This document shows, in pieces, positions 4,255 through 7,040 of a stretch of 13,968 bases of DNA (positions are counted from its first letter, which is position 1; every line of letters begins with the position of its first letter). The position numbers and the translations under genes were made by a program. The DNA is from Flavobacteriales bacterium (GTDB lineage: Bacteria; Bacteroidota; Bacteroidia; Palsa-965): assembly GCA_040377305.1 (NCBI GenBank), contig JBEIPA010000052.1:1-13968 (forward strand), given 5' to 3'. The notes under the pieces are model-generated. The model searched no databases, was not told the origin of the DNA, and was given only the letters and a program-made list of their open reading frames with translations.

Positions 4255-4743
4255 ATGGCAAGTTTCGATATCGTTTCCAAATTCGACGGACAAACACTCG
4301 ACAATGCAATCAACAGCGCACGCAAAGAAATTATTGGTCGCTTCGATTTCAAGGGATCGAAAACTACAATTGATCTTGATAAGAAGGAGAACCTCATCAA
4401 GATTCACACCGAAGATGAAATGCGTTTGAAATCTGTGATCGATGTGATCCGCATGCGCATGGTGAAACAGAATCTCGATCCACGTTGTCTCGACGAAGGA
4501 AAAGAAGTGGAAGCCACAGGCATGACCATCCGCAAAGACATCAAAGTCAAACAAGGAATTGATGCTGACACTGCGCGCAAAATTCAGAAAGACATCAAAG
4601 ACTCCAAACTGAAAGTGCAAGCCCAGAAAATGGACGATCAAATCCGCGTTACCGCCAAAAAGATCGACGATTTACAAGCAGTCATTGCCCTCTGCCGACG
4701 CGGACAATATGATATGCCTCTGCAGTTTGTGAATATGAAATGA
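4255..4743 (+). CDS. yajQ: YajQ family nucleotide/cyclic di-GMP-binding protein
   Basis: 162 aa with hallmark segments MASFDIVS, RFDFKGSK, KQGID, KLKVQAQ, IRVTAKKIDDLQAVI and PLQFVN. Confidence 0.95.
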   Translation: MASFDIVSKFDGQTLDNAINSARKEIIGRFDFKGSKTTIDLDKKENLIKIHTEDEMRLKSVIDVIRMRMVKQNLDPRCLDEGKEVEATGMTIRKDIKVKQGIDADTARKIQKDIKDSKLKVQAQKMDDQIRVTAKKIDDLQAVIALCRRGQYDMPLQFVNMK

Positions 4744-4745
4744 TT

Positions 4746-4821
4746 GGATGATAGGATGATAGGATGATGGGATGATGGGATGATGGGATGATGGGATGAT
4801 GGGATGATGGGATGATAGGAT
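4746..4821 (+). repeat. 8-bp tandem repeat (GGATGAT[A/G]) x 9.5
   Basis: Counted directly: 2x GGATGATA, 6x GGATGATG, 1x GGATGATA, then GGAT. Starts 2 nt after the yajQ stop. Confidence 0.95.
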
Positions 4822-4827
4822 CTGTCT

Positions 4828-4980
4828 GCTACACTATTCGACCTGACAGCGCCACGATATCGGTTCTCACATCAAAGCCACGATCCCGGTTCTCAAGACG
4901 TGGTGTCACGGTCCCCGACCTGACACTGCGACAATCTCGGTCCTCACGACAAGCCACGATCCCGGTCTCACAACATCACT
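4828..4980 (+). repeat. Degenerate array of six 23-28 bp units arranged as two ~77-bp blocks (BIME-like REP cluster)
   Basis: Units start at 4828, 4851, 4877, 4905, 4928 and 4953. CGACCTGACA occurs at 4839 and 4916. AAGCCACGATCCCGGT occurs at 4875 and 4951. Confidence 0.7.
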
Positions 4981-4984
4981 CTGC

Positions 4985-5012
4985 TATCCGCGCGCTGAAG
5001 CGACGCGGCTAT
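4985..5012. repeat. GC-rich hairpin (REP-like)
   Basis: CCGCGCGC-TGAA-GCG(A)CGCGG: 8-bp stem with one bulge, in the convergent gap between yajQ and the small ORFs. Single copy in the window. Confidence 0.45.
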
Positions 5013-5059
5013 CATCGCTCGATCAAGGGAAAGTTGTGCACTCGCTGTGCTCGTGAAAA

Positions 5060-5185
5060 TTATTCTTTGTAAAACACGAAGTACCAGAAAATCAACACCA
5101 CAACAGCAAGGCATCCCCACATGACTATTTCCTTAACGTCATCTGGTGGTTCGCGGTGGCTAAGTGCAATACGTAATACTCTCAT
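5060..5185 (-). CDS. Small single-pass membrane protein (41 aa)
   Basis: MRVLRIALSHREPPDDVKEIVMWGCLAVVVLIFWYFVFYKE*. ATG 5185 overlaps the TGA of the upstream small ORF (ATGA). One hydrophobic helix of about 20 aa. Confidence 0.6.
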   Translation of the reverse strand: MRVLRIALSHREPPDDVKEIVMWGCLAVVVLIFWYFVFYKE

Positions 5186-5340
5186 TCCCGTTTCTTCTTC
5201 CAGGAGTAATACGTCCACAAAGCACCACCTAAGGAGAGAGTCAAAAGTACCACGAAAGCCCAATTGGCCCAATATCGCTCTTCCGGAGAAAGCTTAAAGT
5301 TCCCGTGAGGACCATAACGCAGAATCGTCAGCATCTTCAT
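5182..5340 (-). CDS. Small single-pass membrane protein (52 aa; 50 aa from ATG 5334), absent from the ORF track
   Basis: Manual translation: MKMLTILRYGPHGNFKLSPEERYWANWAFVVLLTLSLGGALWTYYSWKKKRE*. ATG 5340 overlaps the TGA of the SBBP gene (ATGA). The hydrophobic helix is followed by a KKKR positive-inside tail. Confidence 0.6.
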   Translation of the reverse strand: MKMLTILRYGPHGNFKLSPEERYWANWAFVVLLTLSLGGALWTYYSWKKKRE

Positions 5341-7040
5341 TCCACAATCAACTTGAGAGTCGACAGATTCCCTTCCGTAACCACGTTCACGAAATAAATT
5401 CCGGAGGTCAGTCCATTAAGATTTATGAAGGCTTGTTTTCCATTCAAGTGAACTTCCGTTTCAACGAGTTTTCCATCAATTGAAAAAACGGTGCACGCTT
5501 TTATAACTTCACTTGAAACTAGCGTTGCGTATTCATTTGCAGGATTCGGATAAACTTCCAAATCAGTTCTTAAAATTTCGGAATCCGGAATCACGGAATT
5601 CGAAGACCATGTCTCCGAAAGTTTATACCTCACCGCAAACCCATCTCCGTTCGAAACATAATTCGATTGAAACGGATTCAACACCGGAAGATTGTTGCTG
5701 TATGAATATCCCACCGTTGTTGCAACCGTATCTGCATTCACTGTAATGCTCATCATTTCATCAGCCCCGCTTCCACCGAAATAAGTTGATGTAACATAAT
5801 TACCCGCAGTGTCGAATTTCACAATGAATCCGTCTGTTCCGCCCCACAGCGAATCCTGCGGTGCCGTCACGTTCATGAATAAATCAGGACTGCTTGTTGC
5901 ACCTGAGACGTACAAATATCCATCGCGACGAACCATGCTCCAGGTTTTATCATCCACACTTCCTCCGAAGAACGTTGAGAAATACGGAACACCTGTGCTG
6001 TCGAATCGCGCTACCCACGCGTCGTTTATTCCCTGAAACATAGGCTGAAAAATTGTTCCTGCGGTATTGAAATCAATGCTGGATGTGTGACCAGCCAGAT
6101 AAATATTTCCATTGGAATCTCCTGCAAGACCGAAGCAATCTTCATTACCGGAACCGCCGTAGTATGTTGCGTACTTTCGTGTACCATCCATTTCAAATAC
6201 CACGTAATACGCATCACAAATGCCGAGCTTTCCGTTTTGAAATGCTCCTGGTGTACACGGAAAGTTGGTGCTGAATGATCCACCGCAGGCAAGGATTTGA
6301 TTATTCGGTGAAACAACTAGTGTGTGAACATCTTCTGTACTAGATCCACCATAAAAAGTTGACCACGCCGGCGCGAATGATTGATCAAGTACGGTGATGA
6401 ACAAATCGTTTGCTCCTGCGTTTGTTTGCTGATAGCCCAATGTACTTTGTGGCAAAGAGGTTGAAGTTGTTGCGCCACCAATCACAATCATGCCGCTGGA
6501 GTCCACATCAATGCCGTACGCTTGTTCTGCACCAATATCTCCGAAGTAAGATGCTTGCTGTATTGTTCCGTCAAAACCGAGGCGAAGAATCACGGCATCA
6601 TAACTTCCGGCATGCGTGGGTTGAAATGCATTCACCATCGGACAATCGTTGCTGTTGGTTGAGCCCACAACGTAAATCACGGTATCGTGTACAACCAACG
6701 CATTCGCCGATTCAAAGAACAGTCCGCCGTACATAACTGTCCAGACAATTTGTCCAAGACTGTCCATGCGAAAAATGACCATGTCGTAACCACCGGCAAG
6801 CGAATCCAGAGAATCTGTTCCCGGAAAAGTGGTGCTCATTGTGCGTCCGCAAACAACTACGCCTTTATCAGGCATGTCGCGCACGCAAAACAGTTCGTCT
6901 GTATCAGTGGAGCCCGCGTACGTCATCCACTGCGTAGCAAACGTTCCTGCAAGCACATTAACAGGTGCAAACTCACGCTCATTCTGCGCGAATGCGAAAA
7001 CGGAAAAAAGTAAGGAAGCTAACAGCGTGAAAAATCTCAT
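5337..7040 (-). CDS. SBBP-repeat (beta-propeller) protein with T9SS type-A sorting domain
   Basis: Signal peptide ending AFA-Q. About seven repeats of the form (S/A)T(Y/F)(Y/F)GGS..D/E ... D..G.IY..G.T.S. C-terminal VYPNPA...IDGK...LTSGIYFV...KLIVE. Confidence 0.9.
   Translation of the reverse strand: MRFFTLLASLLFSVFAFAQNEREFAPVNVLAGTFATQWMTYAGSTDTDELFCVRDMPDKGVVVCGRTMSTTFPGTDSLDSLAGGYDMVIFRMDSLGQIVWTVMYGGLFFESANALVVHDTVIYVVGSTNSNDCPMVNAFQPTHAGSYDAVILRLGFDGTIQQASYFGDIGAEQAYGIDVDSSGMIVIGGATTSTSLPQSTLGYQQTNAGANDLFITVLDQSFAPAWSTFYGGSSTEDVHTLVVSPNNQILACGGSFSTNFPCTPGAFQNGKLGICDAYYVVFEMDGTRKYATYYGGSGNEDCFGLAGDSNGNIYLAGHTSSIDFNTAGTIFQPMFQGINDAWVARFDSTGVPYFSTFFGGSVDDKTWSMVRRDGYLYVSGATSSPDLFMNVTAPQDSLWGGTDGFIVKFDTAGNYVTSTYFGGSGADEMMSITVNADTVATTVGYSYSNNLPVLNPFQSNYVSNGDGFAVRYKLSETWSSNSVIPDSEILRTDLEVYPNPANEYATLVSSEVIKACTVFSIDGKLVETEVHLNGKQAFINLNGLTSGIYFVNVVTEGNLSTLKLIVE

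What the first reader, a model, noticed from the sequence alone, without database searches (positions are those of the whole stretch)
5060..5340. Two hidden small membrane proteins chained by ATGA overlaps to a T9SS beta-propeller gene
Seen: the SBBP gene stop (5337-5339) overlaps ATG 5340 of a 52-aa ORF, whose stop (5182-5184) overlaps ATG 5185 of a 41-aa ORF. The first is below the ORF-track cutoff and the second is mis-started there. Both share a layout: M..(I/V)LR, a His-containing polar stretch, P-acid-acid (PEE / PDD), W-small residue starting a hydrophobic helix, a W/Y aromatic belt and a short charged tail. Inference: two consecutive stop-start overlaps plus shared architecture suggest translated, possibly paralogous microproteins of an undescribed family co-expressed with a secreted cargo. 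Function is unknown.
Basis: partly seen in the sequence, partly recalled or inferred. Interest (0 to 1): 0.7.

Follow-up and report, generated by a model that had tools for sequence, protein, structure and literature searches.

The report
Two lineage-specific tiny membrane proteins
Two tiny reading frames sit directly behind a secreted-protein gene: the first has conserved counterparts at the same spot in two close relatives and is very likely a real membrane protein, the second is likely real but has no counterpart found at that spot in other species, and both are likely ordinary lineage-specific membrane accessories rather than a new system.

Summary
In detail: SBBP-T9SS gene, ATGA overlap, 52-aa ORF A (5340-5182), ATGA overlap, 41-aa ORF B (5185-5060), then convergent yajQ. 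A is very likely a real gene. The two closest relatives carry a 51-aa ATGA-coupled single-helix ORF at the same spot; those two are 65% identical with dN/dS about 0.16, and A aligns to one of them better than 599 of 599 layout-matched decoys. The three carriers form one clade; 20 other readable genus loci lack the ORF, so it is a recent add-on, not a fixed SBBP partner. B is absent from both relatives. It is still probably coding (strong helix, good start context, gap-free strain contigs), about 70%. No family, structure or true paralogue was found; the nearest look-alike is an unnamed 57-aa family in another Bacteroidia family, which A fails to join. Best reading: passengers at the operon tail, translated by reinitiation, acting as inner-membrane accessory helices. 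No RNA or ribosome data. A small new family of a common kind.

The parts
5337..7040 (-). 567-aa SBBP-repeat beta-propeller protein with N-terminal signal-like segment and T9SS type A C-terminal domain; its TGA overlaps the ATG of ORF A
   Evidence: ORF list; Pfam SBBP and Por_Secre_tail above cut-off; TIGR04183 47.4 bits, cut-off 23
5337..5340 (-). First ATGA stop/start overlap, also present at both orthologous loci
   Evidence: L017; L050
5182..5340 (-). ORF A, 52 aa: short N-terminal segment, polar linker, one hydrophobic helix (about residues 25-43), W-x-Y-x-S-W-K aromatic belt, basic tail
   Evidence: predicted helix 19-51 with pLDDT about 90 in the helix; orthologues at L017:1337-1492(-) and L050:1991-2146(+)
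5182..5185 (-). Second ATGA stop/start overlap
   Evidence: the G015 orthologue also ends in ATGA but the frame there closes after 4 codons
5060..5185 (-). ORF B, 41 aa: polar acidic linker, strongly hydrophobic helix (residues 20-38, Kyte-Doolittle 2.56), short tail; no counterpart at the two orthologous loci
   Evidence: predicted helix 15-40; gap-free strain contigs
4839..4970 (.). Short dispersed repeats (REP-like, label from recall) downstream of B, with similar copies elsewhere in the genome and at the G015 locus
4255..4743 (+). Convergent DUF520 (yajQ-type) gene that closes the variable slot
   Evidence: Pfam PF04461 200.7 bits; same neighbour at most genus loci

Best explanation
ORF A is very likely, and ORF B likely, a small single-helix membrane protein that was added at the tail of a secreted-protein operon in one narrow lineage, is likely made by ribosomes restarting at the ATGA overlaps, and likely works as an accessory helix on some inner-membrane protein rather than as a dedicated partner of the secreted propeller. 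Shown: the ORFs, both overlaps, an A-type ORF at the same position with the same overlap in the two closest relatives, purifying selection between those two, and absence from the other readable genus loci. Inferred: co-transcription with SBBP (no terminator-like site found between them), termination-reinitiation, insertion with the basic C-terminus in the cytoplasm and the short N-terminus in the periplasm (clear charge bias for A and its orthologues, weak for B), and action through helix-helix contact with a membrane protein, by analogy with described small membrane proteins. My odds: A translated 0.9, B translated 0.7, accessory-helix function 0.35, B a duplicate of the A family 0.35.
For: G015 and metagenome locus L050 each carry a 51-aa ATGA-coupled ORF after the SBBP orthologue. 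These two are 33 of 51 identical without gaps, with mismatches 12/10/24 by codon position, NG86 dN 0.25 and dS 1.52, against 0.32/1.59 for the SBBP C-terminal 70 codons; dN reached dS in 0 of 822 unsaturated bootstrap replicates (178 of 1000 had saturated dS), and both other frames contain stops. A aligns to the L050 protein with local score 57 (0 of 5000 window shuffles) and global 54 (0 of 599 layout-matched decoys). A's identity to the two orthologues (29%, 35%) matches that of the T9SS tail over the same distance (32%, 31%), and the three carriers form a 100/100 clade. Of the 24 other genus loci: 1 has the ORF, 11 run straight into yajQ, 6 hold an unrelated 101-229 aa membrane protein, 3 hold other DNA, 3 end at a contig break. 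For B: helix strength reached by 0.16% of 10,386 off-frame ORFs, start context about the 75th percentile of coupled genes and above the 90th of chance overlaps; codon score 95th percentile of off-frame ORFs; two strain contigs cover B or its 3' half with 5 and 7 substitutions and no gaps, and in one the match ends at B's stop, read as TAG, with different DNA behind it. ATGA overlaps as sites of reinitiation, and little SD use in Bacteroidetes: passages of PMC6728339.
Against: Selection was measured between the two orthologues, not on A or B themselves; positions of the strain substitutions inside A and B were not listed, and those contigs are of low depth. A's codon score is only at the 17th percentile of real genes, and the synonymous-only score at the 63rd percentile of off-frame ORFs. 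Start-context scores of A and both orthologues are low (-0.62, -0.97, -0.25, resubstitution matrix). A against the G015 protein (global 34) is no higher than A against the best look-alike from an unrelated family (34). B has no homologue in any search, and the ATGA after the G015 orthologue opens only 4 codons, so that overlap can arise by chance. The family rests on 3 sequences. No membrane partner was identified.
Confidence: 0.55

Rival explanations
1. A is a real gene, but B is a chance hydrophobic ORF in the intergenic tail that is at most translated as noise.
For: No B at G015 or L050; not called in the public protein collection; ATGA follows 85 of 322 TGA-ending genes that have no long follower; weak charge bias.
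Against: Helix strength, start context and codon score all fall on the coding side; 6 of 1550 intergenic and 3 of 10,386 off-frame ORFs share B's layout; one strain contig keeps the frame to a synonymous stop and diverges behind it.
Confidence: 0.25
2. B arose by tandem duplication of the A-family gene in this lineage and diverged quickly, so A and B are paralogues (compatible with the best explanation).
For: Adjacent, same layout and coupling. B's first 9 residues resemble the L050 orthologue better than all but 12 of 3528 gene N-termini; summed global score against the three family members is reached by 7 of 599 layout-matched decoys.
Against: Local and profile tests negative; no DNA similarity (p 0.11-0.38); 14 of 32 members of an apparently unrelated family score higher than B against the A family.
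Confidence: 0.35
3. The A family is a dedicated helper of this SBBP subtype: an inner-membrane anchor whose periplasmic N-terminus holds or chaperones the propeller between Sec export and T9SS pickup.
For: ATGA coupling to SBBP kept in 3 of 3 carriers, which form a clade; predicted N-out topology puts the N-terminus in the compartment the cargo crosses (inference).
Against: The sister locus G007 and the other readable genus loci lack it; the N-terminal segment is the least conserved part between A and its orthologues; 1 of 141 T9SS-like genes in the genome has such a follower, against 18 of 3387 other genes.
Confidence: 0.12
4. A and B are small membrane-damaging or stress peptides (type I toxin-like or holin-like) parked in a variable slot.
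For: Size, one helix and basic tail fit that class (general knowledge; the review PMC12648545 lists small membrane toxins, seen as abstract and section list).
Against: Coupling to an operon gene would tie them to its expression; single copy; no PHROG match better than E 0.045; no phage or plasmid match for B. An antisense RNA was not searched for.
Confidence: 0.07
5. A is not a separate protein but a membrane anchor joined to SBBP by a -1 frameshift, or a leftover helix of a large sensor protein.
For: The overlap is a -1 frame step; A's best weak hits lie in about 1000-aa frames at a helix-like segment (best E 2.3e-4 per genome).
Against: No slippery heptamer in the last 60 nt of SBBP at any of the 3 loci; the start codon itself is kept in all three; the three-sequence profile no longer finds those long proteins.
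Confidence: 0.04

Closest known systems
Lineage-specific intergenic microproteins of bacteria (PMC11188072, passages read)
   Same: Short, hydrophobic, potentially transmembrane, under purifying selection, narrow range, fast turnover between neighbouring genes.
   Different: That survey covers Enterobacteriaceae; this family is in an uncultured Bacteroidia lineage and is chained by stop-start overlaps.
Small single-pass membrane regulators and accessory subunits such as MgrB or CcoQ-type proteins (names recalled; class reviewed in PMC12648545, abstract and section list seen)
   Same: About 40-55 aa, one helix, aromatic belt, charged tail, no room for a catalytic domain.
   Different: No sequence match to any such Pfam or NCBIfam family; the upstream gene is a secreted cargo, not a membrane complex.
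Unnamed 54-66 aa single-helix family of Bacteroidia family f12 (motif A-P-D-x-x-Y-E-I-G, found here in 30 of 81 genomes)
   Same: Same layout; best non-self hit of the A-family profiles in two wide searches (E 7e-4 and 1.1e-5 per genome); similar helix end (A-Y-W-x-Y-x-S).
   Different: Its core motif is missing in A and its orthologues; its profile does not find A or B in this genome at E 20; profile-profile probability 87% over 22 helix-end columns only, 20% globally; different neighbours.
Termination-reinitiation gene pairs with ATGA overlap (PMC6728339, passages read)
   Same: Four-nucleotide overlap; no SD needed in Bacteroidetes.
   Different: None; the mechanism is common (193 of 3528 long genes here lead through ATGA into an ORF of 100 aa or more).

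Membership tests
ATGA-coupled gene pair | Stop and start share ATGA | tested here: met
   first overlap also at L017 and L050
ATGA-coupled gene pair | Downstream translation depends on upstream termination | not testable with these tools
   needs reporter or ribosome data
Conserved small membrane protein (A family) | Open frame of similar length kept at orthologous loci | tested here: met
   52, 51 and 51 aa at 3 loci
Conserved small membrane protein (A family) | Purifying selection | tested here: met
   dN 0.25, dS 1.52 between the two orthologues; not measured on A itself
Conserved small membrane protein (A family) | One transmembrane helix with basic C-side | tested here: met
   19-residue hydropathy 1.44, 2.17, 2.05; 3-4 K/R on the C-side; predicted helix. 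Prediction only.
Conserved small membrane protein (ORF B) | Counterpart at orthologous loci of other species | tested here: not met
   none at G015 or L050; no convincing hit in 60 relatives
Conserved small membrane protein (ORF B) | Frame kept in strain-level relatives | tested here: inconclusive
   two low-depth contigs, no gaps, stop kept in one; substitution positions not shown
A-B paralogous family | Sequence similarity above same-layout decoys | tested here: inconclusive
   local and profile tests negative; global sum 7 of 599 decoys, B against A 50 of 599
   absent from both orthologues of A
f12 A-P-D-x-x-Y-E-I-G family | Significant match to the family profile | tested here: not met
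   A and B not found at E 20 among 91,431 peptides; A 75 of 1268 and B 70 of 1268 decoys score as high, orthologues 5 and 15 of 1268
Any Pfam, NCBIfam or PHROG family, or solved structure | Hit above cut-off | tested here: not met
Programmed -1 frameshift anchor | Slippery heptamer before the SBBP stop | tested here: not met
   none at 3 of 3 loci
Type I toxin-antitoxin | Antisense RNA and toxicity | not tested
   no RNA search or assay was run

The most novel reading that the evidence does not exclude
The A family is a translationally coupled inner-membrane microprotein that meters or chaperones export of its own T9SS cargo, a cargo-specific helper gained by one clade and duplicated (ORF B) in this genome, and a far branch of a wide, unnamed Bacteroidia superfamily of 40-60 aa single-helix proteins.
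Probability: 0.1. Interest if true: 0.6.

Novelty: new member of a known kind. Interest (0 to 1): 0.3.

Why it matters
It adds a small, unnamed membrane-protein family and a clear case of genes being gained at an operon tail, in a slot that other genus members leave empty or fill with other membrane genes. That fits the known picture of fast-turnover bacterial microproteins. It would matter more only if A proved to control secretion of its T9SS cargo, which the patchy distribution argues against. The organism appears to be uncultured, so tests need a surrogate host.

Tried and rejected
Own-genome tblastn and profile searches found no paralogue of A or B. Protein-database searches returned only A itself and nothing for B; both covered near lengths only and need shared 5-residue words. 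The A-family profile found 2 of 35 genomes of the order as true hits plus 2 weak hits inside long frames; 1 other genome of 400 in the class; and, with B added to the profile, 2 of 400 in the phylum, all from the f12 look-alike family. Viral contigs: none. ESM Atlas: best scores 0.84 and 0.83, below the useful range. Complex prediction of SBBP with A: no verdict, score 0.02, not used either way. Sequencing runs: no RNA holder listed. The search of 50%-cluster representatives could not be run, so family members outside the searched genomes remain open. The DNA around 21 further close SBBP homologues (P0004-P0024) could not be fetched. The sigma-70 and terminator scan found nothing in 4830-5500; it does not cover Bacteroidota promoters. 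LWL85 failed numerically. Paper searches for SBBP with type IX secretion, and SBBP with beta-propeller and Bacteroid, returned 0 papers; some searches were seen as listings only; no supplements were opened, and small-protein catalogues in them could hold these peptides. Look-ups of earlier scan findings gave nothing relevant.

Full report
Observation. The minus strand carries a 567-aa gene (7040-5337) with SBBP repeats and a T9SS type A tail, then ORF A (5340-5182, 52 aa) and ORF B (5185-5060, 41 aa), each starting in an ATGA overlap with the stop before it. Short dispersed repeats follow, then a convergent DUF520/yajQ gene. The window is a whole contig of a 5.2-Mb genome. A is already a called protein in public collections; B is not. 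ATGA is frequent here: 302 of 3528 long genes, 193 of them leading into 100 aa or more, and 85 of 1611 genes without a long follower. The overlaps are therefore a hint, not proof.

ORF A is very likely a gene. Searching with A alone finds nothing convincing, so I read what follows the SBBP orthologue in relatives. Of 27 genus genomes, 25 have the SBBP gene, this one included. The closest, G015, has a 51-aa ATGA-coupled ORF at the same place, and so does metagenome locus L050. These two are 33 of 51 identical without gaps; mismatches fall 12/10/24 on codon positions; dN is 0.25 and dS 1.52, close to the SBBP tail (0.32/1.59), dN reached dS in 0 of 822 unsaturated bootstrap replicates of 1000, and the other two frames have stops. 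A aligns to the L050 protein above all 5000 window shuffles and all 599 layout-matched decoys; against the G015 protein 1 of 599 decoys scores as high. A's 29-35% identity to them equals that of the T9SS tail over the same distance, and the three SBBP genes form a 100/100 clade in a 25-row tree (the fragmentary G022 locus was left out, L050 added). Against: selection was not measured on A itself, its codon score is at the 17th percentile of real genes, and the start-context scores of A and its orthologues are low.

The family is narrow and the slot is variable. Among the 24 other genus loci, 1 has the ORF, 11 lead straight to yajQ, 6 hold a different 101-229 aa membrane protein, 3 hold other DNA and 3 are cut by contig ends. 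G012, one of those 6 and one row of the tree, is an unpublished genome; the conclusion does not depend on it. The three-sequence profile finds only this genome and G015 as full-length hits among 35 genomes of the order, and nothing clear in 400 class and 400 phylum genomes apart from one look-alike family. Small helix followers are not enriched behind T9SS genes in this genome: 1 of 141 against 18 of 3387 (crude motif definition of T9SS genes). The simplest history is one gain at the operon tail in the ancestor of the three carriers.

ORF B is probably, not surely, a gene. Neither orthologous locus has it; at G015 the A orthologue also ends in ATGA but the next frame closes after 4 codons, a natural control showing chance overlaps. 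No homologue turned up. For it: a helix as hydrophobic as B's occurs in 0.16% of 10,386 off-frame ORFs, and 89 of 24,045 intergenic ATGs give such an ORF; its start context sits near the 75th percentile of coupled genes; its codon score is at the 95th percentile of off-frame ORFs and the 24th of real genes. Contigs from three other runs cover parts of A and B with substitutions and no gaps; one spans 5061-5236 with 5 changes and, by its loose end, keeps B's stop as TAG and then continues in different, repeat-like DNA. These are single low-depth contigs and the changed positions were not listed. I put B at about 0.7.

Paralogy is open. A against B: local p 0.25-0.40, 50 of 599 decoys as good, no DNA similarity, and rank 440 of 490 on the family profile. 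About 0.35.

Mechanism. A and its orthologues have one helix with 3-4 basic residues behind it (predicted helix), which suggests C-terminus in, N-terminus out; B's bias is weak. No terminator-like site lies in the region and no slippery site precedes the SBBP stop at any of the 3 loci, so separate proteins made by termination-reinitiation are the likely product; passages of PMC6728339 describe ATGA overlaps as such sites and Bacteroidetes as not using SD motifs. With about 20 residues outside the membrane, and conservation concentrated at the helix end, the likeliest activity is helix contact with an inner-membrane protein, as for described small membrane proteins (PMC12648545, abstract and section list only). 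This step is inference by analogy, about 0.35, and no partner is known. A dedicated role in SBBP export is possible but unlikely (0.12), since the sister locus G007 and most relatives do without it.

Comparison and novelty. No Pfam, NCBIfam, PHROG or PDB match above threshold. The nearest look-alike is an unnamed family of about 57 aa present in 30 of 81 genomes of another Bacteroidia family. It shares the layout and the helix end, but A and B fail its profile and the global profile match is 20%; remote homology is not excluded, as the two orthologues score above 99% of decoys. Lineage-specific, hydrophobic microproteins under selection are a described and abundant class (passages of PMC11188072). 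Searches for SBBP with T9SS in the held papers gave 0; supplements were not examined. Verdict: real observation, one well-supported and one probable small membrane gene, a new small family of a common kind. Interest 0.3.

Noticed in passing
L056:1489-1662(-), L092:1501-1674(+), L059-L090: Unnamed single-helix family of about 57 aa (motif A-P-D-x-x-Y-E-I-G ... P-F-V-V-L) in 30 of 81 genomes of Bacteroidia family f12, no Pfam hit above cut-off; in the two loci read it lies between an enoyl-CoA-hydratase-like and a QueD-like gene (labels recalled from the sequences). Wider and better conserved than the finding itself.
   Followed up: partly
L022, L023, L024, L025, L029, L030 (after the SBBP stop): In 6 genus members the same slot holds a related set of 101-229 aa membrane proteins with a shared hydrophobic N-terminus, not matched by the A profile.
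   Followed up: no
G000 contig C49, about 99844-100196 (-): A tandem pair of clearly similar 57-58 aa hydrophobic ORFs behind a long gene, a better case of duplicated small membrane proteins than A and B.
   Followed up: no
window 4744-5059: The gap between yajQ and ORF B is built from short repeats with copies on many contigs; other genus members carry different repeat types in the same gap.
   Followed up: partly
window 5337-7040; L018, L019, L020: This SBBP form is about 565 aa, while many orthologues are 730-780 aa with an extra N-terminal region; the short form is shared by the three carriers of the small ORF.
   Followed up: no
G000 contig C14, after 51615-54258 (-): A 77-aa ORF with signal-like start, a proline run and a C-terminal hydrophobic segment with basic tail, sitting behind a long gene.
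   Followed up: no
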